Source of the DNA: a candidate division TM6 bacterium GW2011_GWF2_28_16
GTDB taxonomy: Bacteria > Babelota > Babeliae > Babelales > UASB340
Direction: 5' to 3'
DNA: 64,000 nt
Assembly: GCA_000989185.1 (NCBI GenBank)
Contig: LBNX01000003.1
Coordinates: forward strand, 33,704-97,703
How positions within the stretch are numbered: the stretch's first letter is position 1; each line of letters starts with the position of its first letter. The notes beneath the pieces were generated by a model. That model worked only from the letters and a program-made list of their open reading frames with translations. It did not search any database and had not been told where the DNA came from. Of this stretch, positions 8,080 through 49,476 are shown piece after piece. The position numbers and the translations under genes are program-made.

Positions 8080-8169
8080 AAATATTATTTTATCTGGTTT
8101 ACATATTGTTTTAATATGATAGAACTATAACATATTTTTAATTAATAGTGAATTTTGAAGGGTTTTTAT

Positions 8170-11047: not shown

Positions 11048-11165
11048 TTTATAAAAACTAATGTTTTTTGTTAAATAATGCATTTGCAGTCTGTAATATA
11101 TTTATGTAATATATATTACATGTGTTACAAATAGAAATGTATTTTTGATAAAAATGGAGGTTTTT

Positions 11166-14280: not shown

Positions 14281-15190
14281 ACGTGTTGTTATAATTGGTT
14301 CTGGTCCAGCAGGACTTACTGCTGGTATTTATTTGGGTAGGGCAAAATTTGAGCCATTATTAATTGAGGGCATGCAACCTGGTGGTCAGCTTACTACAAC
14401 AACTAAAGTTGAAAATTGGCCAGGGATAAAAGAAGTTATGGGCTTTAAACTCATGATGGATATGAAAGATCATGCAAAGGCTTCTGGCTGTAAAATTATT
14501 TCTGATACAGTAGAAAGAGTAGATTTTTCTGGCATACCATATAAAATTTTTACAAAATTGGGAAAAGAATTTTTGGCTGAATCTGTAATAATTGCTACAG
14601 GAGCAAGTCACAAAAAATTAGGCATACAGGGAGAACAAGAATATTGGGCTAAAGGTGTTTCTGTTTGTGCAACATGTGATGCTCCATTTTTTCAGGATAA
14701 AAATGTGATTATAGTTGGCGGTGGTGATAGTGCTGTGACAGAAGCTGAGCATTTAACTCACTTTGCTAAAACAGTAACTATAGTTCATTTATTAGAAGAG
14801 CTAACTGCAAAAGATCCAATTAAATATAAAGTTCTTGAAAATAAAAAAGTAAATGTAATTTATAATTCAAGTGTTAAAAAAATAGATGGGGATGGTCTAC
14901 GTATGACCAAAGTTACTATAGAACATCAACAGACAGGTGATACTAAGGTTATCCCTGCAGAGGGTCTTTTTGTAGCCATTGGTATGAAGCCTAATACTGA
15001 TTTTTTAAAATCACAATTAGATTTAGATAATTATGGTTATGTTGTTCTTACTGGAAAAACTACAACTTCAAAAGAGGGCGTTTTTGCTGCAGGCGATGTT
15101 GCTGATTTTGTTTATAAACAAGCTATAACGGCTTCTGGTTTTGGGACTCAAGCTGCACTTGATTGTCAAAGATATTTATCAAAAAAATAA
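14273..15190 (+). CDS. trxB: Thioredoxin reductase (cytosolic type)
   Basis: 305 aa. It has the FAD motif IIGSGPAG, the redox CATCDAPFF and the NADPH motif IIVGGGDSA. There is an 8-nt overlap with rarA. Confidence 0.92.
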   Translation: MVERVVIIGSGPAGLTAGIYLGRAKFEPLLIEGMQPGGQLTTTTKVENWPGIKEVMGFKLMMDMKDHAKASGCKIISDTVERVDFSGIPYKIFTKLGKEFLAESVIIATGASHKKLGIQGEQEYWAKGVSVCATCDAPFFQDKNVIIVGGGDSAVTEAEHLTHFAKTVTIVHLLEELTAKDPIKYKVLENKKVNVIYNSSVKKIDGDGLRMTKVTIEHQQTGDTKVIPAEGLFVAIGMKPNTDFLKSQLDLDNYGYVVLTGKTTTSKEGVFAAGDVADFVYKQAITASGFGTQAALDCQRYLSKK

Positions 15191-17081: not shown

Positions 17082-18599
17082 TTAATTATTTAATTTTTCG
17101 TTAATAATTTGTTTAAATGCAACTTCATCTCTGCCACCAGAGAATCTGGCAACCTCTTGGCCATTTTCGAATAATATAAATGTAGGTACTCCTCTAATGC
17201 CCCAAATTTGGGCTAGAATTTCTACATTAGCAACATCTGTTTTTATAAATTTTATAGTGTTTAATTCTTTTGCTAATTTTTCAACAATAGGATGCATCAT
17301 TTTACAAGGGAAGCACCAGTGGGCATAAAAATCTGCAACAACTTTGCCTTTGTAATTTAAAACTTCTTTTGCAAATTGTTGCTCATCTGTAACTTCTATT
17401 ACAGAGCCGAATGTTTGAGATTTTTGGGTTAGGTTCTTTGTAGGTACACTTTTTTTTGCTGGTGCTATTTCTTGAACGTCTTGTTTTTCAGGCGTTATTT
17501 TTTGTGCTTGATCTTGCACATTATTTTCTATATTTGTGTTTGGTGTGCTAAAACCAATTTTTGCTAAAAAACTTTGTGCATGCATTGCTGATCTTGCACC
17601 ATCACCTGCTGCTATAATTAATTGTTTATATTCAGGTTCACAGACATCTCCACAGGCAAAGATACCAGATTTAGAAGTTTTTTGGTTTTTATGGGTTAAG
17701 ATATAACCTTGTTCATCTAAATCTATTTTATTTTTAAATAATTCTGTATTTGGTTTAGCACCTATGGCCAAGAACATGCCATCAATATTAAGTTCACTTG
17801 TACTATTATTTTTATTATTAAATATTTCTAATTTTATAACTTTGTTATTATCGCCAATAACTTTTTTAATATTAGTATTATAAATTATCTCAATATTACT
17901 TTTGTTTTTTACAGTATCTGTTTGTTTGCCAGAAGCTCTTAATGTATCTCTTCTTACTATTAAATAAACTTTTTTCGCAATATTAGAAAGATATAAAGCA
18001 TCTGTAATTGCTGTATTACCACCACCAACTATAGCAACAGTTTTCTCTTTATAAAATGGGCCATCGCATGTTGCACATTTAGAAACGCCGTGCCCAAAAT
18101 ATTCTTTTTCGCCTGGTATATCCAAAAAGTTTGCTGTAGCACCAGTTGCTATAATACAAGATAATGCTTGTATTATTTTATCTTGGTTATTTTCTTTTAT
18201 ATTTATTAAATATGGCCAAACAGAAAAATCTACAGAATTAACTTGAGCGTTTATTATATTTGCACCAGAAGATATAGCATGCTCTTTTATTTTATTAGCC
18301 AAATCTATGCCAGAGATATTTTTTTCACCAGGCCAGTTACAGACAGAGTGTGATGCTGTTATAGCTCCACCAGGGATTGTGCCTTCTAATAAAACATGTT
18401 TTATGTTGCCTTGGCTTAAATAAATACTGGATGTTAACCCTGCAAACCCACCACCAATGATTACAACTGGGTAAGTGCTATCGTCTATTTTTACAACACT
18501 GGCGTCTAATTTTTTGAAATTTTTGGTAGAAGAATAGTTAAGACAACCTACTAAAAATACTAAACATAATATTAACGTTAAATTTTTTATGGCCTTCAT
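17082..18599 (-). CDS. Thioredoxin reductase-thioredoxin fusion with N-terminal lipoprotein signal peptide
   Basis: 505 aa. The signal is MKAIKNLTLILCLVFLVGC (lipobox LVGC). It has FAD (VIIGGGFAG), CATCDG and NADPH (IVGGGNTA) motifs, a low-complexity linker, then a thioredoxin fold with WCFPC. Confidence 0.8.
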   Translation of the reverse strand: MKAIKNLTLILCLVFLVGCLNYSSTKNFKKLDASVVKIDDSTYPVVIIGGGFAGLTSSIYLSQGNIKHVLLEGTIPGGAITASHSVCNWPGEKNISGIDLANKIKEHAISSGANIINAQVNSVDFSVWPYLINIKENNQDKIIQALSCIIATGATANFLDIPGEKEYFGHGVSKCATCDGPFYKEKTVAIVGGGNTAITDALYLSNIAKKVYLIVRRDTLRASGKQTDTVKNKSNIEIIYNTNIKKVIGDNNKVIKLEIFNNKNNSTSELNIDGMFLAIGAKPNTELFKNKIDLDEQGYILTHKNQKTSKSGIFACGDVCEPEYKQLIIAAGDGARSAMHAQSFLAKIGFSTPNTNIENNVQDQAQKITPEKQDVQEIAPAKKSVPTKNLTQKSQTFGSVIEVTDEQQFAKEVLNYKGKVVADFYAHWCFPCKMMHPIVEKLAKELNTIKFIKTDVANVEILAQIWGIRGVPTFILFENGQEVARFSGGRDEVAFKQIINEKLNN

Positions 18600-18782: not shown

Positions 18783-19916
18783 ATGTTTGCTGCTATCAAA
18801 AAAATGGGGTACAAAAAGATCGTTTTTATTTTATTTACGTTTATTTTGGCTATAAATTTTGCTTTTATTAGTAATAAAATTATGGCATTGCCAGATAGCT
18901 TAAATAGTCCAGAAAATATAAGTACTCAAGTAACAAATAAGAGTAATGTTGCTGAAAAAGCAAAAATAAGCTCTTTTTTTAATTTAGAAAATTTAAAACA
19001 AATATTTTCGCCCGAAAAATCTGTATTATATTTATTTATATTGGCATTTTTAATAGGTTTAATTACGAGTTTTACTCCATGTGTTTATCCTATGATTCCA
19101 ATAACTTTGGGAATATTACAAACCCAAGCTAGTGGGTCTGTATTAAGAAATTTTATGTTATCTGTAAGTTATGTTCTTGGTATTAGTACAATATATGCAT
19201 TTTTGGGTTATTTAGCTGCAACAACAGCTATTATGTTTGGTCAATGGTTAGCTAATCCATGGCTTATATTTTTTATAATATTATTTTTTATTTATTTAGC
19301 TTTTTCTATGTTTGGTTTTTACGAAATTAAAATGCCTCGTTTTTTAACTAAAAGAGAAAATGTAAGTGTTAAAGGTTCTTATTTTTATAGTTATTTATTT
19401 GGTTTAATTTCTGGCACAGTTGCATCTCCATGTTTAACACCATCGCTTGCTATAGTTTTGAGCTTTGTAGCAAAAGCTGGTAGCCCGGTAATAGGCTTTT
19501 TTGCCTTGTTTTTCTTTTCTTTAGGGATGGGGATTTTATTAATTTTAATTGGTACATTTTCAGCATCACTTTCTATTTTGCCAAGAGCTGGTATGTGGAT
19601 GATAGAGATTAAAAAGTTTTTTGGTTTTGTTTTGCTTTTTATGTCTATTTATTTTTTACAGCCATTATTGGGTGGATTTGCTGCATATAAATTATATGCG
19701 ATTTTAATTTTAATTTCTGGAGTTTATTATTTAGTAAAAGCTCAAAATAGTAAGATAAAAATTTATTTGGGTATTTTATTAATTATAAGTTCGTTAATAT
19801 TAACGGGATGGATTATAAGAGAAAAAAACACGAGAAGAACAAGGCTTTTGGCTACAAATTTAAAGCCTGACAGTATGCTTGTTTGTTTAAGTACCGCCAG
19901 GCACCAAAGATTATAA
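18783..19916 (+). CDS. CcdA/DsbD-family thiol:disulfide electron-transfer membrane protein
   Basis: 377 aa and polytopic. The conserved Cys motifs are FTPCVYPMIP and VASPCLTP. Confidence 0.8.
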   Translation: MFAAIKKMGYKKIVFILFTFILAINFAFISNKIMALPDSLNSPENISTQVTNKSNVAEKAKISSFFNLENLKQIFSPEKSVLYLFILAFLIGLITSFTPCVYPMIPITLGILQTQASGSVLRNFMLSVSYVLGISTIYAFLGYLAATTAIMFGQWLANPWLIFFIILFFIYLAFSMFGFYEIKMPRFLTKRENVSVKGSYFYSYLFGLISGTVASPCLTPSLAIVLSFVAKAGSPVIGFFALFFFSLGMGILLILIGTFSASLSILPRAGMWMIEIKKFFGFVLLFMSIYFLQPLLGGFAAYKLYAILILISGVYYLVKAQNSKIKIYLGILLIISSLILTGWIIREKNTRRTRLLATNLKPDSMLVCLSTARHQRL

Positions 19917-19920
19917 AAAA

Positions 19921-20355
19921 TTATAATAATTTATTAATAGCTTCTTCGAGTTCTTGTTCAGAAATTTCACCAGCAATTTGTGTTACAATATTATTATCTT
20001 TAAATAATACAAAAGTTGGTACACCTAGTATATTATATTTGTCTGTTATTTCGCCTAAATTGCTTGCATCAACTTTGAAAAAGTTTATTTTTGTAAAATA
20101 TTTATTTGCTAATTTTTCGTAAATAGGTTCCATAACTTTGCATGCGCTGCACCATTTAGTTTCGAACTTAACTACGCAAGGTTTTTGATTTGAAAAAACT
20201 TGGGAATCAAAGTCTTGAGAGCTTGTTATATTAATTATTTTTGAGTTTAAAGTTTCTTGAGAGATATTTATTTGATTGTCGTTGGTTTTTTTTTCTAAAG
20301 AATTACACCCAGAGAAAATAGTCAAAATTATTGTACCAATAAATATTTTTTTCAT
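19921..20355 (-). CDS. Periplasmic (lipoprotein) thioredoxin-like protein
   Basis: 144 aa. The signal MKKIFIGTIILTIFSGC is followed by a thioredoxin fold with WCSAC. Confidence 0.8.
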   Translation of the reverse strand: MKKIFIGTIILTIFSGCNSLEKKTNDNQINISQETLNSKIINITSSQDFDSQVFSNQKPCVVKFETKWCSACKVMEPIYEKLANKYFTKINFFKVDASNLGEITDKYNILGVPTFVLFKDNNIVTQIAGEISEQELEEAINKLL

Positions 20356-22439: not shown

Positions 22440-22518
22440 TAATTAATTCTTGAGTTAAAATTTTTTTTAATTAAGCTAAAAAAGCTTTTTGATAAATTTT
22501 AATTTAAGGGTTTTTATT

Positions 22519-23202
22519 ATGTTTAAAAAAATAATTTTATTTTTATCTTTTGCTTTTGTTTCGCAATGTGCTTTTTCTGGTAATTCGGTTGAATTGGGAT
22601 CAGGTTTTAATTCTGGTAATTTGCCTAATATTTTATTTGATAACTATAAAAAATATATTGAAAAAAATAATATAACAGATACAGAGGTAACGCGCTTAAA
22701 TTTTTTAGTTGATACATTAACAAAATATCTTGAACCTGAAAATGAATATTATCAAATTTTTTCACAACAAAATTTACTTGAGTCATTTGCAAAAAAATTT
22801 GAAATAGAAAAGTTGTTTTTAATTAACTTTGATAAAAATTATAAACCTGGTGATTATTACATTCATTGGTTAATTAGAACAGAAAAATTAAATTTTGAAC
22901 TAAAATATAAAAATATAAAAAATTTGTTGGTTGATGATGTTGATCCAAATGTTTTAGATGCCGAAAATAAAACCCCAATAGATTTAGTTTTAAAAAATAA
23001 TTTTACCGTAGAATTTGCTAAATTATTTTGTGATTTTAAGGTAAACATTTATCCACACACTTATGATTTATTAAAAGATTATGAACCTGAAGATTTTAGT
23101 CAAGAAACATGGATTGATATTTTTGAGAAGTTTAAAAATAATTGTAAAGACTGTGAAGAAATATCAAAAGATGTAAAAACTGAAAAAAACGTTGAAAATT
23201 AA
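22519..23202 (+). CDS. Hypothetical secreted protein (C-terminal ANK-like remnant)
   Basis: The ATG at 22519 follows AAGGGTTTTTATT. It has the signal-like MFKKIILFLSFAFVSQCAFS. The C-terminus (DAENKTPIDLVLKNNF) resembles that of the next gene. Confidence 0.55.
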   Translation: MFKKIILFLSFAFVSQCAFSGNSVELGSGFNSGNLPNILFDNYKKYIEKNNITDTEVTRLNFLVDTLTKYLEPENEYYQIFSQQNLLESFAKKFEIEKLFLINFDKNYKPGDYYIHWLIRTEKLNFELKYKNIKNLLVDDVDPNVLDAENKTPIDLVLKNNFTVEFAKLFCDFKVNIYPHTYDLLKDYEPEDFSQETWIDIFEKFKNNCKDCEEISKDVKTEKNVEN

Positions 23203-23288
23203 ACAAAAACACGTTTTTCTATCTGTAATATTTTTGCTATAATAAATATGTGTAAAAGTTAGAAAATCGTTTAAAAATGGGGGTTTTT

Positions 23289-24359
23289 ATGAAAATGTAT
23301 TCAAAAATTATATTATTTTTGTGCTTTTTAGGTGTTTCTCATGATTATGTGAATGCTTCTATTAGAAAAAAGTTGAGAAAGAAGAGAAATCCTAATAATA
23401 TGCTTGAGCGTGAGTTAAAAAGATTAAAAATAAAAAAAGAAGAAGATATAATTTGGTTAGAAAAGTGTCCATATTCTTTACGTAGTAAAATTTTTTCAAA
23501 ATTAGACTTAAATAGTTTGTTAAAAACAGCAGAGTTAAATAAAGTTCTTTATAAAGATGTCTGTGATTTTGTATTTTATAAATTAGAAAATAAACAAGGT
23601 CAATTGGTATTTTTAGCTTATTTTAAAGAATGGGAATTATTAAAAAATAAGTTAAATGAATTTAAAGAAAATACTATTTCGGTACCGTATGAATTTAAAG
23701 ATATAAATCCATTAATATTAATGATAGAAAATCAAGCTCCTGTAGAGATAATAGAATTAATGGTTGATATGTATCCACATTTTTTATTTATACATAATGC
23801 AAGACTTACTTATGCTTTTACTGGATTTGAAAATTCATATCATAGGTATGCAGCTCTTGGAACATTGCTTATTAATTTTAAAAATTATGAAAAAGAATGG
23901 TTTTATGAGGTTTTGGATATTATATTATCAATAAATAGAGATTTTTTATTTCGTATTTCTGAATTTCAGGAAGATTATGATGATTTTGATTCGTATTTAC
24001 ATTGGGTATTAAAAACAAAAAATATGGATCATGATACTAAGATTGATGTTCTTCAGCAATTTTTAACTTATGGCGCTAATCTAAATAAATTGAATAACGA
24101 AGAAAAAACTCCATTACATATTGTAATAGAAAATAAAATGAGTTTAGATTTTATAGTTTTATTAATTGATGCAGACGCTGTAGTAGATCAAGATATTATT
24201 GATACTTTTGAACAAAATTATAAGGATCAAGAAGATAAAACGGAATATGAAGAATTTTTAAATATTCTTAAAGTACATTTTAATTATAATCCTGAAATTG
24301 AAAATAATTTAGTCTTTGCAAATAATAGCGATGATTTTGCTTCTGGTTTAGAAGATTAA
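23289..24359 (+). CDS. F-box-like plus ankyrin-repeat protein
   Basis: The ATG at 23289 follows GGGGGTTTTT. The F-box-like block is WLEKCPYSLRSKIFSKLDLNSLLKTAELNKVLYKDVCD (about 23448-23567). ANK-like GANLNKLNNEEKTPLHIVIEN lies near the C-terminus. Confidence 0.6.
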   Translation: MKMYSKIILFLCFLGVSHDYVNASIRKKLRKKRNPNNMLERELKRLKIKKEEDIIWLEKCPYSLRSKIFSKLDLNSLLKTAELNKVLYKDVCDFVFYKLENKQGQLVFLAYFKEWELLKNKLNEFKENTISVPYEFKDINPLILMIENQAPVEIIELMVDMYPHFLFIHNARLTYAFTGFENSYHRYAALGTLLINFKNYEKEWFYEVLDIILSINRDFLFRISEFQEDYDDFDSYLHWVLKTKNMDHDTKIDVLQQFLTYGANLNKLNNEEKTPLHIVIENKMSLDFIVLLIDADAVVDQDIIDTFEQNYKDQEDKTEYEEFLNILKVHFNYNPEIENNLVFANNSDDFASGLED

Positions 24360-24381
24360 TAATAAAATTTAATTATAAAAA

Positions 24382-24404
24382 AATCCCGGATAAAACTTCC
24401 GGGA
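24382..24404. terminator. Bidirectional hairpin terminator
   Basis: ATCCCGGA-taaaact-TCCGGGAT is flanked by an A-run and a T-run. The stem sequence matches the arms of the B-short repeat. Confidence 0.65.
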
Positions 24405-24442
24405 TTTTTTTTGTTTAAATAAATTTTTTAAAAATATTTTAT

Positions 24443-25219
24443 TTATAAAATAGCTTTAAATTCTTCAAAAATTTGATCTGGTGTTTTTTGTGAAACACTT
24501 AATATTTCTATATTTATACCAGAATCTTGATACGCTTTTATAAGCTCATCTTCGTTTTTATAATAAACATCAAATCTTTGTGAAATAACTTCTGGCTTAT
24601 CATCATTTCTTTGTATTAAAACACTACTACATTTTAAGCATTTGCCTGCAGCAATTTCTGGCATAGAGGTATTATAAACAGCCTGACAAGATTTATTAGG
24701 GCAAACGCGTCTATTAACAAGTCTATTGGTTATCTCGCCTTTTGATATTTCTAGTTTTACTACTCTAAAATTATGTTCGGGTAAATTATTTTTAATTAAA
24801 GTTATTAATTTTTGAGCTTGAACATCTGTTCTTGGAAATCCATCTAAAATTATTTGTCTATCTGTATCTTTTACAGATAACAGCCATTCCTTTACCATGC
24901 TAATTACAAGATCGTCTGGTACTAGTTCGCCTTTGTCCATATACTTTTTAAGTTCTTGGCCAATAGTAGTATTGTTTGCAATATGTTGTCTGAATAAATC
25001 ACCTGTCGAAAGAACGATAAAATTTAATTTGCTTGCTGCTTGTTGAGCTAATGTGCCTTTGCCAGCACCAGGAGCACTTAAAAATGTGAATATAAATTTT
25101 TTATTTTTTAGCATGTTATTTTTGACCTCTTTACTATTATTTATAAAATTAGAGCAACCTGATAATAAAATTAAACAAAAAATAAATATATTTGTCACGA
25201 TCTTAGTTATTGTCTGCAT
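24443..25219 (-). CDS. adk: Adenylate kinase with an in-frame N-terminal lipoprotein signal peptide (alternative internal start at 25114)
   Basis: P-loop SAPGAGKGT and Zn-lid Cys pairs (CPNKSC...CLKC) are present. The 35-codon extension MQTITKIVTNIFIFCLILLSGC has a classic lipobox. Both ATGs have SD-like purine runs upstream. Confidence 0.85.
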   Translation of the reverse strand: MQTITKIVTNIFIFCLILLSGCSNFINNSKEVKNNMLKNKKFIFTFLSAPGAGKGTLAQQAASKLNFIVLSTGDLFRQHIANNTTIGQELKKYMDKGELVPDDLVISMVKEWLLSVKDTDRQIILDGFPRTDVQAQKLITLIKNNLPEHNFRVVKLEISKGEITNRLVNRRVCPNKSCQAVYNTSMPEIAAGKCLKCSSVLIQRNDDKPEVISQRFDVYYKNEDELIKAYQDSGINIEILSVSQKTPDQIFEEFKAIL

Positions 25220-25272
25220 ATGTACCCCATAAAAATAAAATTTTACTAAAAAATAATTAATTTAAAAATTAT

Positions 25273-26958
25273 TTAAAAAATAGGCTCAAATTCGCAGTTT
25301 TTTGGTTTTGGTAAGTTTAATATTTTTGCAACTGTTGCAGGTAGTTGTGGTATCCATACTCTATTTTTAAATTTTTTATGTTCAAAAACACCTGGTTGAT
25401 AAATTATTAATGGAACATGCGTATTAAATTTACTACCAGTTCTATGCCCTGTACCATATTTTTCTTCAGCAACTGTAGAATATTTATTTGGTATGATAAT
25501 TATGTGACCAGATCTTTTTAGATATATTTGATTTTTATAAAAGTTTTCAACAGAGCTAAACTTAAAATTACCATTTAGTAATTCTTGATCTGTATAAACT
25601 TTGCTTACTCCTGGCTTGGAGCGTATTATTTTTTTAATATTTTTAAATAAGCTATTTTTAGTATCTACTGGAATTTTGTTTAGTTCTTTAACGTTTAAAT
25701 ATAGTTGGCATGATTTAATTTCGTAAACAATATTATTTATATTATATTTAGTTTTTATTTTATTATTGATTTCAGCTTTGAGTTCATTTGCTTTTATAAC
25801 ATGTGCATCGTAACCGCGTTTTTTGCTTATTTTTACTAATGGTTGTATGCCATGATCTGCTGTTAAAATAAATAATATATTTTTTTCGCCAATTTTTTTA
25901 TTAATAAAATTTGTAAATTCTTTTATTTGATGGTCTAGGTGGTAAATCATGTCTATAGCTTCTATGCTATCTGGACCGTATGTATGACCTAAATAATCTA
26001 ACGGAGAAAGTGAAATCCATAAAAGCATTGGTTTTATGGGTTTTGTATTATCAAAATTTTTTTCTATACATGTTTTACTTAAATCAAGTAATACTTTATT
26101 TGCTAAAGGTGTTTTAATAAATTCACTATATTCAGGGTATTCGTAAATATTTTTTTTAAAATAATCTTTTAAATATTTATTTGAAATTAATGTTTTATTA
26201 TCTTGAACATATTTATAATGTGTTTTTTTATGAAAATCTATATAGTCAAAATTGTAATATTTAGTTTTGCTATTTATTGTATATAAATATTTATTATGTA
26301 ATTTATAAAATAACTCCCATTTATAATTTTTTATAATATTATCAAGGTTATAATTTGCATTAAAATCTTGAACCCATTCTGGTATTTCATTAAAAAAAGC
26401 TTTAGATGTTGTAAAAATTCCTGTTTTATCATCAAACCAAATAGGATTGCCAGACGCACCAGACATACCAATAGATGCTCTAGATTTTAGTGATATAGAA
26501 TATGTTTTATAATCTGGATATTTTTTTGTAAATTCATAAGTAAGCCCTGAGCACATAGTATTTTTAGCACTTTTACCGTAATTTTGTAGTTTGTTCTCTG
26601 GACCAAAAACTAAAGAATTTTGTGAATCATCTTGATCACTTTTTACTTTTTGATATTCCGGGGTTATCCAAGCATTATTTATTATTCCATGATCGCGAGC
26701 AAAAGCTCCTGTGTTTAATGCTGTATGCCCGGTTGCTGTAGCTGGCGTTCCATGAGGATGATGCGCGTTTCTGCAAGTAATACCATTCTTTAGTAAATCT
26801 TTAAATGCATAATTAAAATTTTCATTTAATTTTTCTATATAATTATAAGCAAACTGATCTATTACCATTATTATAGTTAAGTCTGGTATATTGCTAAAAA
26901 TATTTAAACTAAAAATTAAATTTAATAATAATATTTTAATAAATAAAGATGTTTTCAT
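25273..26958 (-). CDS. Secreted alkaline-phosphatase-superfamily enzyme (PafA/NPP-like)
   Basis: 561 aa with a signal peptide. The metal/nucleophile region is VIDQF...GTPATATGHTALNTGAFARDHGIINNAW, with a distal ADHG. Confidence 0.6.
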   Translation of the reverse strand: MKTSLFIKILLLNLIFSLNIFSNIPDLTIIMVIDQFAYNYIEKLNENFNYAFKDLLKNGITCRNAHHPHGTPATATGHTALNTGAFARDHGIINNAWITPEYQKVKSDQDDSQNSLVFGPENKLQNYGKSAKNTMCSGLTYEFTKKYPDYKTYSISLKSRASIGMSGASGNPIWFDDKTGIFTTSKAFFNEIPEWVQDFNANYNLDNIIKNYKWELFYKLHNKYLYTINSKTKYYNFDYIDFHKKTHYKYVQDNKTLISNKYLKDYFKKNIYEYPEYSEFIKTPLANKVLLDLSKTCIEKNFDNTKPIKPMLLWISLSPLDYLGHTYGPDSIEAIDMIYHLDHQIKEFTNFINKKIGEKNILFILTADHGIQPLVKISKKRGYDAHVIKANELKAEINNKIKTKYNINNIVYEIKSCQLYLNVKELNKIPVDTKNSLFKNIKKIIRSKPGVSKVYTDQELLNGNFKFSSVENFYKNQIYLKRSGHIIIIPNKYSTVAEEKYGTGHRTGSKFNTHVPLIIYQPGVFEHKKFKNRVWIPQLPATVAKILNLPKPKNCEFEPIF

Positions 26959-27127
26959 GAAAATCCCCCCCTAATAATTTTATATGTTTATTTTAACGAT
27001 ATATTGTAGCAATATTTCTAGTTGAAAATAAATAAATTTAATTTTATTAATAATTTTAGCTATATTTATATTGTTTAAGCTAAAAAATCATTTGCGAGAA
27101 TTTTCTTTTTTGATAGTATTATGCTTT

Positions 27128-27174
27128 CCTCGTTGTCGTAAATTATAGTAAAGACGGCGAGGGTTCTTTTTTTT
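27128..27174 (+). promoter_or_regulatory. Terminator-like hairpin inside the 5' leader of the first NTT gene (candidate attenuator)
   Basis: CCTCGTTGTC-(15 nt)-GACGGCGAGG forms a 10-bp stem with two G:U pairs, followed by gttcTTTTTTTT. It sits 48 nt before the ATG. The upstream gene is divergent, so this does not terminate anything. Confidence 0.4.
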
Positions 27175-27221
27175 AAATAAAAGTTTTTTATATAATATTA
27201 TTATTTTTTATAGGAGACCCT

Positions 27222-28574
27222 ATGTTTTTTCGTATTATCAAGTTTTTTTGGCCAGATTTATCTAATGAAGAGATAAAAAAATATGGAATGCTTTCCATGG
27301 CTTTCTTTTTCATTATTGGAGCATACTGGTTATTGCGCCCATTAAAAGATGGTTTCTTTTTTAGTGCAGTAGGTGGAAAATATCAACCAACAGCAAAAAT
27401 GCTTTCAGTTCTTATTGTTGGTATTTTGGTAATGGTTTATTCAAAGCTTGTAGATATAGTCGAGAAACATAAATTATTTTATATTTTGGGTTCTATATAT
27501 ACAGTTTTGTTTGCAATAGTTGCTTACGTAGTAAACTTCCCAGTTGAAGGACCGGGCGCTTTAAACCCATCAATCTTAAGATTTTTTGGTTGGGCTTCTT
27601 ACTTTATTATAGAAAGTTTTGGTTCTATAGTAGTTGCACTTTTTTGGTCTTTTACTGCTAGCGTTTCTGATGCTAAATCTGCAAAAAAAGGTTATTCATT
27701 AGTTATAGCCGGTGCTCAAATTGGCGCAATATTTGGACCCTTTATGGCAACATATGCAAAAAGCTGGGGTTTAATGCCGTTATTTTTAATTGGTACAGTT
27801 TCTATAATGCTTATGATGTTTATCATAAACCGTTTTATGGCTGTAACTCCAAAAGAACAATTAGAAATAAATAAACAAGAAGTTAAATCTGAATCTGCTC
27901 CAAAAACAGGCTTTTTAGAAGGTTTAAAACTTTTATTAACAAGACCATATTTATTAGGAATATTTGCAGTAGTTACAATTTATGAAGTTGTTGGAACTAT
28001 TGTTGACTATCAAATGAAGATGCAAGCACAAGCATTGCCTCAGTATGCATCAAGAGAATCTTTAACAGCATTCTTGGGTGTATTTGGTATGTCTGCAAAT
28101 GCATTAGCATTCTTTATGGCTCTTTTAGGTACAGGTTATATGATGAAAAAACTTGGCCTAAGATTTTGTTTATTAACATTCCCTATTGTTTTGGGTCTTG
28201 CTGTTGCTGGTTTATATGCTGCATATACTTGGGGTCATTTTAATCCAATGATGCTATTGTGGGCAACCTTTGGTGTTATGATGATTGCAAAAGGTTTAAG
28301 CTATGCATTAAATAATCCTGCAAAAGAAATGATGTATATTCCAACAAGTAAAGATGTAAAATTCAAATCTAAAGGTTGGATTGATATGTTTGGCTCAAGA
28401 AGCTCAAAAGCTGTTGGTGCAGCATTTACCGATTCATTAAAAGGTAATGCATATAATTTAATGGCTTATGGAACAATTTTATCTTTAGGCTTTATTGGTG
28501 TTTGGATTGTTGTTGCATTCTTTGTAAGCAATAAATTTGAACGTCTTACAGCAGAAGGCAAAATTGTTGAATAA
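27222..28574 (+). CDS. NTT/Tlc-family nucleotide (ATP/ADP) antiporter, paralog 1
   Basis: 450 aa and polytopic. The blocks LLRPLKDGFFF, ESFGSIVVALFWSF...SAKKGY and NNPAKEMMYIP...KFKSKGWIDMFG match Chlamydia/Rickettsia Npt/Tlc proteins as I remember them. Confidence 0.75.
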   Translation: MFFRIIKFFWPDLSNEEIKKYGMLSMAFFFIIGAYWLLRPLKDGFFFSAVGGKYQPTAKMLSVLIVGILVMVYSKLVDIVEKHKLFYILGSIYTVLFAIVAYVVNFPVEGPGALNPSILRFFGWASYFIIESFGSIVVALFWSFTASVSDAKSAKKGYSLVIAGAQIGAIFGPFMATYAKSWGLMPLFLIGTVSIMLMMFIINRFMAVTPKEQLEINKQEVKSESAPKTGFLEGLKLLLTRPYLLGIFAVVTIYEVVGTIVDYQMKMQAQALPQYASRESLTAFLGVFGMSANALAFFMALLGTGYMMKKLGLRFCLLTFPIVLGLAVAGLYAAYTWGHFNPMMLLWATFGVMMIAKGLSYALNNPAKEMMYIPTSKDVKFKSKGWIDMFGSRSSKAVGAAFTDSLKGNAYNLMAYGTILSLGFIGVWIVVAFFVSNKFERLTAEGKIVE

Positions 28575-28607
28575 GATAAATAAATATAATTTTATTTAAA
28601 ATTTTTA

Positions 28608-28638
28608 AGACCGGCATAACTTGCCGGTCTTTTTTTTA
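28608..28638 (+). terminator. Rho-independent terminator between the two NTT paralogs
   Basis: AGACCGGCA-taac-TTGCCGGTCT followed by T8. Confidence 0.7.
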
Positions 28639-28728
28639 TTTAAAATTTTAAATTTATTTTGTATGCTATACTTTCTTCTTGTAAAAAGGTAATTATTTAA
28701 TAACAAATAATACGAAAGTGTAGAGTTT

Positions 28729-30075
28729 ATGTTTACACGATTTTTTAAATTTTTCGGTAAAGATTTAAGTAGTAAAGAAGTTGAAAAATTTAGTCTTCTT
28801 GCTTTAGCATTTTTTTTTACAGTTGGTGGCTACTGGCTTTTAAAAACATTAAAAGACGGTTTCTTTTTTAATGTCGTTGGTGGTCAATTTCAGCCTAGAG
28901 CAAAAATGCTCTCACTTGTTGTTATTTCTATATTAGTACTTGTTTATAGTAAACTTGTAGATATATTTCATAGACATCAATTATTTTATATTTTTGGAAC
29001 TTTTTTTGCAGTTTTTTTTGCACTTGTATCAATATCTTTGGCTTTACCTGTGCATAGTTTTGGCCCGGCTTATTTGCAATATATAAAAATTTTAGGATGG
29101 GCTTCGTACGTTATGGTCGAAAGCTTTGGATCTATTATGATTGCATTATTCTGGTCTTTTGTAACAAGTATTACAGATACAGAATCTGCAAAGCGTGGTT
29201 ATTTTTTAATTGTTGCAGGCGCTCAACTTGGTGCAATATTTGGTCCCTTTTTATCTTGGAATGCTAAATTTTTTGGATTACCAATATTGTTCGCTATGGC
29301 AACAGCATGCATATTAGCTTTAATTTTAGTCATAAAAAAATTTATTTCAGTTACTCCACAAGAAGAACTTATTGGAGGTAAACAAGATATAAGACCTCAG
29401 GAAAAGACAGGCTTTTGGCAAGGTTTAAAACTTATTACAACCAAACCATATTTATTTGGGATTTTATTATTAGTTATTTTTTATGAAACAGTTACAACTA
29501 TAGTTGATTATCAAATGAAAATTCTAGCACAAGCATTACCTGAGTATGCAACTAAAGAAGCTTTGACATCTTTTATGGGTATATTTGGTATGGCGACCAA
29601 TGGTTTATCTTTATTAATGGCTCTTTTTGGTACAGGTTATTTAATTAAAAAATTTGGGTTACGTTTTTGTTTGTTGGCATTTCCGGTTGCTGTAGGGTTT
29701 GCTATAGCTGCATTATATGGAGTTATTAAATTAGATTTTTTAACTACTCAAAGTATGTTATGGGCAACTTTTACAGTTGTAATTATAGCCAAAGGCTTAA
29801 GTTATGCTCTTAATAATCCTGCAAAAGAGGTTATGTATATTCCAACAAGTAGAGACGCTAAATTTAAAGCTAAAGGTTGGATAGATATGTTTGGTGCCAG
29901 AGGTGCTAAAGCAATAGGTTCTGGGTTTAATGAATATTTAATTAGAACTCCAGATGTTTTATTATATCTTGGTTCTATTTTGTCTTTGGGTTTAATAGGT
30001 ATATGGATTATAGTGGCTCTTCTTGTGGGTAATAAATTTAATAGATTAATAAAAAACAATCAGATAGTCGGATAA
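28729..30075 (+). CDS. NTT/Tlc-family nucleotide antiporter, paralog 2
   Basis: 448 aa, colinear with paralog 1 (LLKTLKDGFFF, ESFGSIMIALFWSF...SAKRGY, NNPAKEVMYIP...KFKAKGWIDMFG). Confidence 0.75.
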   Translation: MFTRFFKFFGKDLSSKEVEKFSLLALAFFFTVGGYWLLKTLKDGFFFNVVGGQFQPRAKMLSLVVISILVLVYSKLVDIFHRHQLFYIFGTFFAVFFALVSISLALPVHSFGPAYLQYIKILGWASYVMVESFGSIMIALFWSFVTSITDTESAKRGYFLIVAGAQLGAIFGPFLSWNAKFFGLPILFAMATACILALILVIKKFISVTPQEELIGGKQDIRPQEKTGFWQGLKLITTKPYLFGILLLVIFYETVTTIVDYQMKILAQALPEYATKEALTSFMGIFGMATNGLSLLMALFGTGYLIKKFGLRFCLLAFPVAVGFAIAALYGVIKLDFLTTQSMLWATFTVVIIAKGLSYALNNPAKEVMYIPTSRDAKFKAKGWIDMFGARGAKAIGSGFNEYLIRTPDVLLYLGSILSLGLIGIWIIVALLVGNKFNRLIKNNQIVG

Positions 30076-30146
30076 AGCTTGTTTTTATTATTTGACAAAG
30101 AGATATATGGCCGTATAATTAAGGCGTAATTGAATTTAGTTTTTAT

Positions 30147-30223
<77 letters not shown>

Positions 30224-30233
30224 AAAGAAAATT

Positions 30234-31007
30234 ATGTACCCAAAATTATTACACATTTTTGGTCCAATATGGATCCACAGTTACGGAACAATGATAGCTG
30301 TGGGTTTTTTATTTTTTGTTTATTTTCTCTATAAAAATCCAAAAAGAATACAATTAATATCTGACGAAAAATTTTTAAATTTATTATTTATAGGACTTAC
30401 TTCTGGAATAATTGGAGGTAGGCTTATTTTTGTTATATACGACTGGGAATTATTTCGAGATAATTTTTGGCAAGTATTTTACCCGTGGGTTGGTGGATTT
30501 GGAATATTGGGTTCTGTTATTGGTGTTTTGTTTTCTTGTTATATATTTTTAAAAAAAAATAAAATAAATTTTTTAAAAATATTTGATCTTGTTGGTGTTT
30601 ATGCAGCATTATTAGAGGGTTTTGGACGTATAGGTTGTTTTTTGGCAGGGTGTTGTTATGGCAAAATAGCTGATGCTAGCTGTACATGCTCTGTTGTATT
30701 TAAAAATCCAGAAGGTCTTGCGCCGCTAAATATACCATTACATCCAACACAGTTATATTCAAGCTTGGCTTCATTTTTAATATTTTTAATTATTTATTTT
30801 AGATCTAAATATTTTTCTTATAAAAATGGTGAAATTATATTTAGTTATTTATTATTGTTTAGTTTGTCGCGAATTATTATAGATTTTTTTAGAGGCGATA
30901 GAGATTTTGTTAATAATTTTTATTTACTTTCTTATTATCAACTAATAGCGATTGTTGTTTTTATTGTTTCGCTTATATCTATAATTTACATTCGAATTAA
31001 AAAATAA
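30234..31007 (+). CDS. lgt: Prolipoprotein diacylglyceryl transferase
   Basis: 257 aa and polytopic. The motifs are IHSYGTMIAVGF, GGRL, GRIGCFLAGCCYG and HPTQLY. Confidence 0.85.
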   Translation: MYPKLLHIFGPIWIHSYGTMIAVGFLFFVYFLYKNPKRIQLISDEKFLNLLFIGLTSGIIGGRLIFVIYDWELFRDNFWQVFYPWVGGFGILGSVIGVLFSCYIFLKKNKINFLKIFDLVGVYAALLEGFGRIGCFLAGCCYGKIADASCTCSVVFKNPEGLAPLNIPLHPTQLYSSLASFLIFLIIYFRSKYFSYKNGEIIFSYLLLFSLSRIIIDFFRGDRDFVNNFYLLSYYQLIAIVVFIVSLISIIYIRIKK

Positions 31008-31012
31008 ATTTT

Positions 31013-32797
31013 ATGCCAATATTTAGTTTTTTAAAATCAAATCTTTCTATTTTAGATTTAATATCAGAATATGTACCGTTAAAACAAGCTGGTAATTATT
31101 GGAAAGGCCCTTGTCCTTTTCATTATGAAAAAGAAGCTTCTTTTACAGTGAGTCCTGATAAGCAAATTTTTTATTGTTTTGGATGCCATGCTAAAGGCGA
31201 TTTGATTTCTTTTGTTGCAAAAAAAGAAAATTTGTCACAGGTAGAAGCAGCAAAGTATCTTATAGATAAATATCAAATAGAATTACCAGAACAAATAAAA
31301 GAAAATTTTTCCAAAAATTTTAATACAAATTTAAATGAAAAAAATAATTATTTTAATGCTTGTAAATTTTTTGCTAATTGGTTGCACGAAAAATTAATCG
31401 AAACGCCAGATGCATTTAATTATTTGGTTAACAGAAATATAAATAAACAAGATATAGAATATTTTAAAATAGGTTATTTTCCTGGAGGGGTCAGAAATAT
31501 TGGTAATTTACTAAAAATGGCTAGTAATTCAGGGTTAATGGCAAAAGATTTTATAGATGCCGGTATTTTGGTTCAAAATAATTCTGTTATTTATTCGCCA
31601 TTTGAAGAGAGAATAATTTTCCCAATTTATGATATTATGTCGCGTTGTGTTGGCTTTGGAGGACGTGTTTTTAGAATTGGTGATGATAGGGCCAAATATT
31701 ATAACAGTAAAGAATCGCTCTGGTTTTTAAAGGGTAAATTATTATTTGGTTTGGATATAGCAAAACAATATATGCAAGAAAAAAAACATGCATTTTTAGT
31801 CGAAGGTTATACAGACTGTGTTGCTATGGCAAAATATGGGTATAAAAATGTTGTCGCAACGCTTGGTACAGCTTGTACTGTTGAACATTTACGCTTAATT
31901 TCTAGATATGTTGATACTGTTTATGTTTTGTATGATGGCGATAATGCTGGTCAAAATGCTATGTTGCGTTTAACGCAATTGTGTTGGGATGTAGATTTAG
32001 AATTAAAAATAATAAAATTGCCTGCAAAACAGGACCCTGCAGATTTTTTGATATCTGGAGGAAATTTAGATTTATTAGTAGAAAGTGCAGATACTGTATT
32101 TGAGTTTTTTATAGATAGTACTAGTAGTAATTTTTTAAGTTTGACATTATCAGAGCAAATGACTGCAGGACGTAGTATTTTAAGTTTAATAGCCAAAATA
32201 GATGATTCTTTAAAACGTGAAATTTTGATAAATAGAGCTGCAAAACACCTTGGAATACAGGCAACAACAATTACGAGCATGGTTTTTGAAGAAAAATCTA
32301 AGTTTATTGCTAATATTCAAGATAATAATATTACTAATAATAAATATATTAAGCCAAGCGAACAGCAAAAAACGGGTTTAAGTATACCCATTTTGGAGGA
32401 ACGCATTTTTTCTGCTATAATAAACAGCTTTGATGGGGCAGATATATTCTTTGTTCCGGGTTATTTGATAGAATATTTTTCTAAAGATATTCAGTTATTA
32501 TTAAAAATAGTTGGTGATTTTATCGCTAGCACTGAATTACAGAAAAATTTTGACTCATTTATAAATACTGTTGACCCAGAGTACAAAGATTGGTTAATAG
32601 CTTGTAGTCTAAAATACGAACCTATGAAAACCAAAGAAGCATTTGATGATCTTGTTGCTATTTTTTTTAAAAAAAATTGGAAAGAAATAGTACAAGATGT
32701 AAAAAGTAAAATGCAAAAGGCAAAAAGCGAAGGTAATGAAGAACGAGTTAAAGATTTATTAAATTTATTTACCCAGCTTAAAAGGGGGTTAATATGA
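31013..32797 (+). CDS. dnaG: DNA primase
   Basis: It has the Zn ribbon [13 protein letters not shown]...CFGCHAKGD and the TOPRIM motifs EGYTDC and YDGDNAG. Confidence 0.92.
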
Positions 32798-49365: not shown

Positions 49366-49390
49366 ACTTTTTCTCCAGATTTTTATTACA

Positions 49391-49476
49391 CGAACGTTTC
49401 GTTCGCCCTGCCTGTGCGCCATAGTCTTAACGACGGCGTAAGCGTAGTCGAAGGGCAAACAGATCAGGGATCTCTC
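49391..49476. repeat. GC-rich repeat in the 5' region of the hydrolase gene
   Basis: cgaacgtttcgttcgccctgcctgtGCGCCatagtcttaacgacGGCGtaagcgtagtcgaagggcaaacagatcagggatctctc. It shares cgttcgccctg with 59278-59327 (reverse complement) and the GGGATCTCTC end with the mutL units. Confidence 0.75.

What the first reader, a model, noticed from the sequence alone, without database searches (positions are those of the whole stretch)
24443..25219. Adenylate kinase carrying a textbook lipoprotein signal peptide (or dual starts)
The adk ORF extends 35 codons upstream of the canonical start (MLKNKKFIFTFLSAPGAGKG, ATG at 25114). The extension, MQTITKIVTNIFIFCLILLSGCSNF..., has a basic n-region, a hydrophobic core and an L-S-G-C lipobox. 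A stop-free 35-codon run that also forms a perfect lipobox is unlikely by chance in DNA this AT-rich. Both ATGs have purine-rich SD-like sequences upstream (GGGGT for 25219, AAAGAGG for 25114). One gene could therefore yield both a cytosolic and an exported, lipid-anchored Adk. An extracytoplasmic Adk is notable in an organism that trades ADP for host ATP.
Basis: partly seen in the sequence, partly recalled or inferred. Interest (0 to 1): 0.62.

Follow-up and report, generated by a model that had tools for sequence, protein, structure and literature searches.

The report
Adenylate kinase with lipoprotein signal, two starts
In a clade of ATP-stealing intracellular bacteria (Dependentiae), the housekeeping adenylate kinase gene has left its usual place, gained a conserved lipoprotein export signal and kept its original ribosome-binding site and start codon inside the gene, so one gene probably makes both an exported, lipid-anchored enzyme and a cytosolic one.

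Summary
ORF 24443..25219(-) is an intact Zn-lid adenylate kinase preceded by 35 codons that meet the lipoprotein rule (K6, hydrophobic core, L-S-G-C22). The chance of this in random upstream DNA is about 3 in 10,000.

The extension is conserved. About 10 Dependentiae relatives (50-88% identity) keep an L-S-G-C or L-T-S-C lipobox. Lgt, BamA and other xxGC lipoproteins lie in the same window.

The internal Met36 is the ancestral start. It sits 15 residues before the P-loop in nearly all relatives. An SD-like GAGGT/AAGGA/GGAGG precedes it, though such motifs are rare in this 28% GC coding DNA.

Three related lineages lost the signal, two by deletion and one by ATG>ATA plus a stop. All keep the ORF from that Met, under purifying selection (dN/dS 0.12).

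More distant Dependentiae keep adk between secY and map. In two genomes of the window's clade that site is empty, so the relocated gene looks like the housekeeping adk there.

Best reading: two products from one gene. The exported form sits beside a secreted PafA-like phosphatase and two ATP/ADP translocases.

Nothing here is experimental. That no second adk exists was shown only for a short-form relative. This is a new variant of a known kind, and moderately to highly interesting.

The parts
24443..25219 (-). Full adk ORF, long form: 258 aa plus stop (pre-prolipoprotein Adk)
   Evidence: ORF list. Pfam ADK and ADK_lid. TIGR01351 above cutoff. Closest solved structures are Zn-lid adenylate kinases, which align to residues 46-257 only.
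25224..25228 (-). SD-like GGGGT, 4 nt before the first ATG
   Evidence: Sequence. Duplex with anti-SD is -6.0 kcal/mol. Relatives have GGAGG or AAGGA at this place (L082, L167, L168, L084, L085).
25157..25219 (-). Lipoprotein signal peptide, residues 1-21 (n-region with K6; h-region I7-G21)
   Evidence: PS51257 and G+LPPv2 patterns are met. Conserved in relatives. The AF2 model shows a lone helix of low confidence outside the Adk fold.
25154..25165 (-). Lipobox L19-S20-G21-C22. C22 is the predicted lipidated first residue of the mature protein; +2 is Ser.
   Evidence: LSGC or FSGC in the window and P0002-P0009; LTSC in P0015 and P0016. Other window lipoproteins use LASGC, IFSGC, FLVGC.
25115..25153 (-). 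N/K/S-rich linker, residues 23-35, between the lipid anchor and the Adk domain
   Evidence: Variable in sequence but similar in length across relatives: 28-30 residues from Cys to the P-loop Gly in the closest group. Low pLDDT.
25125..25132 (-). Internal SD-like AAAGAGGT (codons K30-E31-V32), ending 10 nt before the internal ATG
   Evidence: dG -6.5 kcal/mol. Only 2.4% of in-frame coding positions reach -6 or lower. GAGGT occurs 0.25 times per kb in CDS and GAG is 14.5% of Glu codons. The same motif is at the same distance in L081, L001 and L168.
25112..25114 (-). Internal ATG (M36): the ancestral start, and the predicted start of a 223-aa cytosolic form
   Evidence: A Met 15 residues before the P-loop Gly in 11 of 14 family members (16 in P0016). 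The short-form genes L086, L087 and L171 begin here.
24446..25096 (-). Adenylate kinase catalytic core, residues 42-258
   Evidence: P-loop PGAGKGT and R77, R130, R166, R170, R204, D206, D207, R215 are invariant. pLDDT is about 87-96.
24629..24703 (-). LID with four invariant Cys (C173, C178, C194, C197), a Zn-finger type
   Evidence: Invariant columns. ADK_lid Pfam match.
24377..24411 (-). Intrinsic terminator hairpin after adk, flanked by A-run and U-run (bidirectional; shared with the convergent ankyrin gene)
   Evidence: Fold -18.4 kcal/mol, z -4.2, and 0 of 200 shuffles as stable.
25273..26958 (-). Upstream, probably co-transcribed gene: PafA-like alkaline phosphatase / NPP with a Sec signal peptide. 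The gap to adk is 53 nt.
   Evidence: PF01663. NF042991 PafA at 260 bits, below its cutoff. Directly upstream of adk in L081, L082, L086, L167, L168 and L001, with signal peptides in all those read.
27222..30075 (+). Two tandem TLC/NTT nucleotide exchange transporter genes (27222..28574 and 28729..30075)
   Evidence: PF03219 and TIGR00769. TLC genes lie within a few kb of adk also in L081, L001, L084 and L085.
30234..31007 (+). lgt, prolipoprotein diacylglyceryl transferase (the enzyme that would modify C22)
   Evidence: PF01790, E 3e-54.

Best explanation
The gene is the relocated housekeeping adenylate kinase of a Dependentiae (Babeliales) clade, and it probably gives two proteins.

Long product (inferred). 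Initiation at the first ATG (25219) yields a pre-prolipoprotein. Sec would export it, Lgt would acylate Cys22, and signal peptidase II would cleave before Cys22. That leaves a lipid-anchored, catalytically complete Adk in the periplasm, held on a linker of about 13-20 residues.

Short product (inferred). Initiation at the retained ancestral start (SD GAGGT plus ATG at 25114) yields a 223-aa cytosolic Adk.

Shown here:
- The sequence features themselves.
- Their conservation in relatives.
- The loss of adk from the secY-map site in this clade.
- The viability of short-only alleles.

Inferred:
- That both starts are used in this organism.
- Export and lipidation.
- The role of the exported form.

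Most likely role (inference). The exported Adk equilibrates adenine nucleotides outside the inner membrane, next to the ATP/ADP exchangers. ADP expelled by the translocases would be converted (2 ADP -> ATP + AMP) back into importable ATP. The co-encoded secreted PafA-like phosphatase could turn the AMP into adenosine plus phosphate for salvage. This would be a bacterial counterpart of AK2 beside the ADP/ATP carrier in the mitochondrial intermembrane space.
For: Adk identity and intact catalytic residues.

Lipoprotein signal:
- The rule is met.
- It is not chance (2.7e-4).
- It is conserved as LSGC, FSGC or LTSC in the window, P0002-P0009, P0015 and P0016, while the flanking linker diverges.
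- Lgt and BamA are in the window, along with other xxGC lipoproteins.
- In the AF2 model the extension is a separate, low-confidence helix.

Internal start:
- An ATG lies 15 residues (16 in L084) before the P-loop Gly. SD dG is -5.2 to -7.1 in the window, L081, L001, L082, L167, L168 and L169, and weaker in L084 (-3.5). In the distant L106 the ATG lies 14 residues before, with dG -5.9.
- L085 has GGAGG plus TTG (-10.0).
- Only 4.9% of background coding positions reach -5 or lower.
- The motif is kept with different amino acids (K-E-V, K-G-K, K-G-D, P-E-G) and with rare codons.

Natural short-only alleles:
- L086 and L087 have only about 70-76 nt between the upstream gene and this ATG.
- L171 keeps a recognisable LLGC signal remnant, killed by ATG>ATA and CAA>TAG.
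- These lineages nest inside the signal-bearing clade (92% and 87% bootstrap).
- dN/dS between the two short genes is 0.12, as for the long genes (0.11).

Single-copy argument:
- More distant Dependentiae have secY-adk-map.
- SecY P0209 comes from the same assemblies as short-form Adk P0010, judged by neighbouring GenBank accessions. It is followed directly by map.
- The same holds for SecY P0250, 83% identical to P0209.
- The relocated adk sits in a conserved secA-(NPP)-adk-PBP-Trx-DsbD neighbourhood.

Context for the proposed role:
- A secreted PafA-like phosphatase lies directly upstream.
- TLC transporters are adjacent.
- AK2 in the intermembrane space next to the translocator, and the dual cytosolic/intermembrane location of yeast Aky2, are described in PMC2680645.
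Against: - There is no experimental detection of either product.
- SignalP and LipoP could not be run.
- LspA was not found in the 64 kb window.
- The 10-12 nt SD-to-ATG spacing is at the long end of what works.
- The anti-SD used (ACCUCCUUU) is generic, not read from this organism's 16S.
- The empty secY-map site was linked by accession only to a short-form genome. L174 could not be linked to any adk form. A paralogue elsewhere in long-form genomes is therefore not excluded.
- More distant lipobox Adks (L089, L090, L094, L104) have no internal start, so an export-only Adk exists in some lineages.
- A four-Cys Zn lid would have to stay reduced and metallated in the periplasm.
- 44% of CDS in a cultured Dependentiae have predicted signal peptides (PMC6561590). 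N-terminal hydrophobic segments are thus common in this phylum, and an exported 'cytoplasmic' enzyme may be less exceptional there.
- The tree is neighbour-joining only.
- The functional model (ADP recycling) has no direct support.
Confidence: 0.6

Rival explanations
1. Export-only. Only the long lipoprotein form is made. The internal SD and ATG are an evolutionary relic of the ancestral start. The cytosol gets its Adk function from another gene, or does without it because ATP and ADP are exchanged with the host.
For: Lipobox Adks without any internal start exist (L089, L090, L094, L104). The absence of a second adk was not shown for a long-form genome. The SD spacing of 10-12 nt is long.
Against: The linker around the Met has diverged freely, yet the ATG and a GG-rich motif persist in about 9 lineages, using rare codons. 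Short-only alleles start exactly there and stay under purifying selection. The canonical adk site is empty in the clade.
Confidence: 0.15
2. Membrane tether, not lipoprotein. The hydrophobic N-terminus acts as an uncleaved anchor or an ordinary Sec signal, and what matters is membrane proximity to the nucleotide transporters. It might hold Adk at the cytoplasmic face of the inner membrane, or it might give a soluble periplasmic enzyme.
For: P0012, P0014, P0017 and L091 keep a hydrophobic N-terminus but lack a clean lipobox. The charge difference across the hydrophobic segment is small in the window protein (one Lys before it; K30, E31 and K33 after).
Against: The Cys and the small residues at -1 and -2 are strictly kept in 12 family members and in 5 distant ones. 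The h-region of about 15 residues is of signal-peptide length, not transmembrane length. Lgt is present.
Confidence: 0.1
3. Annotation artefact. Only the short form is real, and the upstream 35 codons are an accidental open frame.
For: Some gene callers chose the internal start in relatives (P0010, P0011, P0013). Some relatives truly lack the extension.
Against: The chance of a lipobox-passing extension is 2.7e-4. The extension is open and lipobox-bearing in relatives down to 50% identity, and in two further clades. A good SD precedes the first ATG in most relatives.
Confidence: 0.04

Closest known systems
Bacterial long-type adenylate kinase with Zn-binding LID (e.g. Bacillus/Geobacillus Adk, PDB 1zin, 1p3j; TIGR01351)
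   Same: Same fold and catalytic residues, a four-Cys LID, and about 40-45% identity over residues 46-257.
   Different: No solved or ordinary Adk has the 45-residue N-terminal part. The first Cys pair is C-x4-C instead of C-x2-C. The P-loop reads GKGTL instead of GKGTQ. The gene is not in the secY-map operon.
Mitochondrial intermembrane-space adenylate kinase AK2 / yeast Aky2
   Same: An Adk placed in the compartment between two membranes, next to an ATP/ADP exchanger. Yeast Aky2 is both cytosolic and intermembrane from one gene (PMC2680645). This is a functional analogy.
   Different: The targeting mechanism differs: AK2 has no lipobox and no Sec export, and Aky2 does not use alternative starts. 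The expected net flux is opposite, because the parasite imports ATP. This is analogy, not family membership.
Secreted adenylate kinase of pathogenic bacteria and lipid-modified (myristoylated) AK2 of Plasmodium falciparum
   Same: These are precedents for an Adk acting outside the cytoplasm and for a lipid-anchored Adk (both mentioned in PMC2680645). From my own memory, the classic case is Pseudomonas aeruginosa.
   Different: As far as I recall, those secreted Adks carry no Sec or lipoprotein signal. Myristoylation is a eukaryotic, cytosol-facing modification. Here the signal is a classical bacterial lipobox.
Bacterial N-terminal proteoform pairs from in-frame internal initiation (ClpB, IF2, CheA-L/S; predicted localisation pairs such as OmpX and PagC)
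   Same: One gene with two in-frame starts, where the shorter product lacks an N-terminal targeting or functional segment (review PMC13515050; bioRxiv 10.1101/520783).
   Different: I found no described pair in which a core metabolic enzyme alternates between a lipoprotein and a cytosolic form (literature searches). Here the evidence is comparative only.

Membership tests
Adenylate kinase (PF00406 / TIGR01351) | Profile score above the curated cutoff | tested here: met
   PF00406 scores 133.6 bits (cutoff 26.8). TIGR01351 scores 195.4 bits (cutoff 168).
Adenylate kinase (PF00406 / TIGR01351) | P-loop GxPGxGKGT, NMP-site Arg and GxLVPD, DGFPR, LID arginines and the DD pair | tested here: met
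   P50, G51, G53, K54, G55, T56, R77, G97-D102, D126-T131, R166, R170, R204, D206, D207 and R215 are invariant in the family alignment.
Adenylate kinase (PF00406 / TIGR01351) | ATP:AMP phosphotransferase activity | not testable with these tools
   Needs an enzyme assay. NCBI names relatives only 'nucleoside monophosphate kinase'.
Adenylate kinase (PF00406 / TIGR01351) | Usual genomic position secY-adk-map | tested here: not met
   The window gene lies between a PafA-like gene and an ankyrin gene. Relatives show secA-(NPP)-adk-PBP. More distant Dependentiae do have secY-adk-map. Position is typical of the family, not defining.
Bacterial lipoprotein (Lgt/LspA substrate; PROSITE PS51257) | Lipobox [LVI][ASTVI][GAS]-C, with Cys at position 15-35 after an uncharged h-region | tested here: met
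   L19-S20-G21-C22 follows I7..L18 with no charged residue. The patterns were re-implemented from memory.
Bacterial lipoprotein (Lgt/LspA substrate; PROSITE PS51257) | Positively charged n-region | tested here: met
   K6 in the window protein; 1-3 K/R in the first 12 residues of all relatives.
Bacterial lipoprotein (Lgt/LspA substrate; PROSITE PS51257) | Processing machinery encoded by the organism | tested here: inconclusive
   Lgt is present at 30234..31007 and in L084. LspA and Lnt were not found in the 64 kb window, and the rest of the genome was not available. A lol system is reported for C. destructans (PMC6561590).
Bacterial lipoprotein (Lgt/LspA substrate; PROSITE PS51257) | Conservation of the lipobox Cys among orthologues | tested here: met
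   12 of 15 long-form family members, and 5 of 6 distant long-form loci, keep a lipobox Cys.
Bacterial lipoprotein (Lgt/LspA substrate; PROSITE PS51257) | Acylation and signal peptidase II cleavage | not testable with these tools
   Needs labelling, globomycin treatment or mass spectrometry.
N-terminal proteoform pair by internal in-frame initiation | In-frame start codon with an SD-like sequence at workable spacing | tested here: met
   ATG 25114 with GAGGT 10 nt upstream, dG -6.5. Only about 2% of background positions are as strong.
N-terminal proteoform pair by internal in-frame initiation | Conservation of the internal start signal beyond protein-level constraint | tested here: met
   The GG-rich motif is retained under different amino acids and with rare codons (GAG 14.5%, AAG 9%).
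N-terminal proteoform pair by internal in-frame initiation | The short product is functional on its own | tested here: met
   Short-only alleles L086 and L087 are under purifying selection (dN/dS 0.12). L171 has a decayed signal but an intact core. The secY-linked adk is absent in the same genome as P0010.
N-terminal proteoform pair by internal in-frame initiation | Both products detected in the same cell | not testable with these tools
   Needs N-terminomics, TIS profiling or western blots.

The most novel reading that the evidence does not exclude
In one clade of energy-parasitic Dependentiae a single relocated housekeeping adk encodes both the cytosolic enzyme and a periplasmic lipoprotein Adk. 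Together with the co-transcribed secreted PafA-like phosphatase and the neighbouring ATP/ADP translocases, the exported form would make an extracytoplasmic ADP-recycling and adenosine/phosphate-salvage module. The parasite could then harvest both phosphoanhydride bonds of host ATP. This would be a convergent bacterial counterpart of the AK2/ADP-ATP-carrier arrangement of mitochondria. The lipoprotein thioredoxin reductase-thioredoxin fusion in the same window hints at a wider habit of running nucleotide- and cofactor-dependent 'cytoplasmic' enzymes in a periplasm fed by host metabolites.
Probability: 0.25. Interest if true: 0.85.

Novelty: new variant of a known kind. Interest (0 to 1): 0.66.

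Why it matters
Adenylate kinase is a textbook cytosolic housekeeping enzyme. A conserved lipoprotein version in bacteria that live off host ATP would show nucleotide interconversion taking place outside the inner membrane, at the outer face of the ATP/ADP exchangers. That would change how the energy budget of such parasites is modelled: two usable bonds per imported ATP, and salvage of adenosine and phosphate.

It would also be a clean, evolutionarily supported bacterial case of dual targeting by alternative translation starts. Natural 'knock-outs' of the long form are already available for comparison.

The idea is directly testable with reporter fusions in E. coli and with the few cultured Dependentiae. 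For annotation, it shows that gene callers split between the two starts, so exported forms are being missed.

Tried and rejected
- **Second adk in the window.** tblastn with the core and with a secY-linked Adk found only the gene itself. A weak hit at 13117..13743 turned out to be an MgsA AAA+ ATPase.
- **Source genome.** The genome-contig scan returned only one family member (L001, 69% identity). The source genome could not be identified or scanned.
- **Linking SecY to long-form genomes by contig length.** I looked for SecY hits on contigs of 199620, 224059, 187272 or 113782 bp and found none in two SecY searches.
- **Linking by GenBank accession.** This worked only for the short-form lineage (P0010/P0209). 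The SecY of the P0016 genome (MFA5074486) was not among the named hits; P0151 is MFA5306279, a different genome.
- **L174 (P0250).** It shows secY-map without adk but could not be tied to a particular adk form.
- **Literature.** Searches for a Dependentiae, lipoprotein or periplasmic adenylate kinase found nothing relevant.
- **Consensus terminator scan.** It reported none in 24300..27300, although folding shows a strong hairpin terminator after adk. The promoter scan gave fewer hits than shuffles and was not used.
- **Extension as part of the fold.** Rejected: no solved Adk covers residues 1-45, and the AF2 model gives a detached helix.
- **Ordinary paralogue of a secY-linked adk.** Disfavoured for the window's clade by the empty secY-map junctions, but not excluded for the more distant lipobox Adks.

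Full report
**1. What is there**

The ORF 24443..25219(-) encodes 258 aa. Residues 47-234 match Pfam ADK (E 8e-39) with the ADK_lid. The protein passes the NCBIfam adk model TIGR01351 (195 bits, cutoff 168).

Its closest solved structures are Zn-lid adenylate kinases. They align only to residues 46-257. All catalytic and nucleotide-binding residues, and four LID cysteines, are invariant across the family.

The first 35 codons read MQTITKIVTNIFIFCLILLSGC|SNFINNSKEVKNN and are followed by M36 (ATG 25114). This stretch has one Lys in the n-region, an uncharged 15-residue h-region and L-S-G-C22. It satisfies my re-implementations of PROSITE PS51257 and the G+LPPv2 pattern.

Three other ORFs in the window pass the same rule with similar boxes (LASGC, IFSGC, FLVGC). 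The window encodes Lgt (30234..31007) and BamA, so this is a diderm with the lipoprotein pathway.

Random upstream DNA of this composition gives a lipobox-passing extension in 0.027% of trials.

An AlphaFold2 model places residues 1-38 as a detached helix of pLDDT 56-69, against about 87-96 for the Adk core.

A strong hairpin terminator follows the gene at 24377..24411.

**2. Conservation of the extension**

A protein search gave a sharply separated family of 17 proteins (E 1e-70 or better). The next hits are ordinary 210-220-aa Adks at about 1e-41.

In the alignment, P0002-P0009 (64-88% identity) all have L/F-S-G-C. P0015 and P0016 (about 50%) have L-T-S-C. The linker after the Cys diverges freely. 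P0012, P0014 and P0017 keep a hydrophobic N-terminus without a clean lipobox.

A metagenome scan added more distant Adks (36-48% identity) with lipoboxes: L089 IAGC, L090 LGGC, L094 ISSC, L104 LAGC and L106 FQGC.

It is not met.

**3. The internal start**

M36 lies 15 residues before the first P-loop Gly. The same spacing holds in 11 of 14 family members (16 in P0016). It matches the start position of non-extended relatives, so M36 is the ancestral start codon.

At the DNA level the window, L081, L001 and L168 all carry GAGGT ending 10 nt before this ATG. L082 and L167 carry AAAGGAAAG. L169 carries GGAAAGGTG. L084 carries GAAAGG, which is weak (-3.5). L085 has no Met there but has GGAGG followed 8 nt later by TTG.

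Duplex energies with a generic anti-SD are -5.2 to -7.1 kcal/mol, and -10.0 in L085. Only 4.9% of in-frame coding positions in the window reach -5 or lower, and 2.4% reach -6 or lower.

The encoded amino acids differ (K-E-V, K-G-K, K-G-D, P-E-G). The codons used are rare here: GAG is 14.5% of Glu codons and AAG is 9% of Lys codons. GAGGT occurs 0.25 times per kb of CDS. This points to selection on the nucleotide motif.

**4. Natural loss-of-signal alleles**

- P0010 (L086) and P0011 (L087) have only about 70-76 nt between the stop of the upstream gene and an ATG homologous to M36. There is no open upstream frame.
- P0013 (L171) still shows the signal remnant ...YFIYFLILGLLILLGCSVL.... Its first codon is ATA, and a TAG replaces the Gln codon of its sister P0005. 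The ORF from the conserved Met is intact.
- In a neighbour-joining tree these short forms nest inside a clade (92% bootstrap) whose successive outgroups all carry N-terminal signals (87%). The signal was therefore lost secondarily, at least twice.
- dN/dS between the two short genes is 0.12 (dS 0.87), the same as between long genes (0.11). An Adk starting at this Met is a functional, selected protein.

**5. Is this the only adk?**

Non-extended relatives that share the family's GKG(T/S)L signature sit in the canonical rplO-secY-adk-map-infA operon (L092, L096, L100, L105, L109, L117, L120, L124).

The window family instead sits in a conserved neighbourhood: secA-(x)-PafA-like-adk-...-PBP/FtsI-FtsL-like-thioredoxin lipoprotein-DsbD. 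In the deeper P0014 and P0016 lineages, adk follows secA directly.

SecY P0209 carries GenBank accessions MBU4387598, MBU4270028 and MCG2756280. The short-form Adk cluster carries MBU4387484, MBU4269811 and MCG2756139. These are 114-217 numbers apart in three assemblies, so the proteins come from the same genomes. In its locus, secY is followed after 33 nt by map, with no Adk-like sequence anywhere.

A second SecY, 83% identical to P0209 (P0250, L174), shows the same secY-map adjacency.

The clade has therefore lost the operon copy, and the relocated gene is the housekeeping adk at least there. I could not link a SecY to a genome carrying the long form. This remains the main gap.

**6. Interpretation**

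The long form is under selection as an exported lipoprotein. The short form's start signals are under selection too, and the short form suffices where the signal was lost. The usual adk site is empty.

The simplest model is one gene with two products: a lipid-anchored periplasmic Adk and a cytosolic Adk. Confidence is about 0.6 for the whole model. It is about 0.8 for 'the long form is a real exported or anchored protein' and about 0.7 for 'the internal start is used'.

The role of the exported form is inferred from context:
- The gene is probably co-transcribed with a signal-peptide-bearing PafA-like alkaline phosphatase. The gaps are 53-85 nt, with no hairpin seen by eye in the gap sequences.
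- It lies next to two TLC/NTT exchangers.

A periplasmic Adk could turn exported ADP into re-importable ATP plus AMP. The phosphatase could convert the AMP to adenosine and phosphate. Dependentiae lack de novo nucleotide synthesis and depend on salvage (PMC4776705, PMC6561590).

The analogy is AK2 beside the ADP/ATP carrier in the mitochondrial intermembrane space, and yeast Aky2, which is both cytosolic and intermembrane (PMC2680645).

**7. Caveats and rivals**

- An export-only reading (0.15) is supported by the distant lipobox Adks that lack any internal start.
- A tether or plain-signal reading (0.10) is suggested by members that lack the Cys.
- An artefact reading (0.04) is contradicted by the conservation.
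- The four-Cys Zn lid in a periplasm is a biochemical question mark. The same conserved neighbourhood does encode DsbD and a thioredoxin lipoprotein, which might supply reducing power. That is speculation.
- In C. destructans 44% of CDS have predicted signal peptides (PMC6561590), so export of unexpected proteins may be common in the phylum.

**8. Novelty**

I found no description of a lipoprotein or periplasmic Adk in Dependentiae or elsewhere. Secreted bacterial Adk, a myristoylated Plasmodium AK2 (PMC2680645) and bacterial N-terminal proteoforms with different localisation (PMC13515050) are all known.

This is therefore a new variant of known kinds. It is well supported comparatively and readily testable.

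Noticed in passing
window 17082..18599 (-); also L081 10242-11741 and L086 13424-14929: A thioredoxin reductase (TIGR01292, 333 bits) is fused to a C-terminal thioredoxin and carries a lipoprotein signal (MKAIKNLTLILCLVFLVGC). The signal is conserved in two relatives, and there is no internal Met before the FAD domain. A second, signal-less TrxR lies at 14273..15190(+). This is another nucleotide-cofactor 'cytoplasmic' enzyme apparently exported as a lipoprotein.
   Followed up: partly
window 18783..20355: A thioredoxin lipoprotein (19921..20355 -, lipobox IFSGC) lies next to a DsbD/CcdA-type membrane protein (18783..19916 +). The pair is part of the neighbourhood conserved with adk in all relatives, and suggests a reducing pathway in the periplasm.
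   Followed up: partly
window 25273..26958 (-): A PafA-like alkaline phosphatase / NPP-family protein with a Sec signal peptide lies 53 nt upstream of adk. The same gene is directly upstream of adk in six relatives. It is absent in the deeper P0014 and P0016 lineages, where adk follows secA.
   Followed up: partly
window 27222..31007 (+): Two tandem TLC/NTT nucleotide exchanger genes are followed directly by lgt.
   Followed up: partly
L171 1..240: A decaying signal peptide sits in front of an intact short adk. The start codon is ATG>ATA and a Gln codon is CAA>TAG, but the LLGC lipobox is still readable. It is a natural knock-out of the long form.
   Followed up: yes
L089, L090, L094, L104 (metagenome loci): These are more distant Adks (36-48% identity) with clean lipoboxes but no in-frame start codon between the Cys and the P-loop. 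They are apparently export-only, and none sits next to secY. Their genomes should hold a second adk.
   Followed up: partly
L172 6001..8121; L174 3501..5599: The ribosomal-protein operon has secY followed directly by map (gaps of 33 and 53 nt), without adk. Other Dependentiae loci (L092-L124) have secY-adk-map.
   Followed up: yes
window 24377..24411: A strong bidirectional hairpin terminator (-18.4 kcal/mol) lies between the convergent adk and ankyrin genes. The consensus terminator scan did not report it.
   Followed up: yes
window 8155..9516 (+) and 23277..24359 (+): Ankyrin-repeat proteins, typical of eukaryote-associated bacteria. The one at 23277 has a hydrophobic N-terminus. Several neighbouring ORFs (22489..23202, 11145..12839, 47812..49482, 49717..51513) have no Pfam match.
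   Followed up: no
window 32794..35157 (+): The sigma-70 (RpoD) gene encodes 787 aa. No Pfam match was reported in its first ~190 residues (region 1.1 begins at residue 195). It overlaps the end of dnaG by 4 nt.
   Followed up: no
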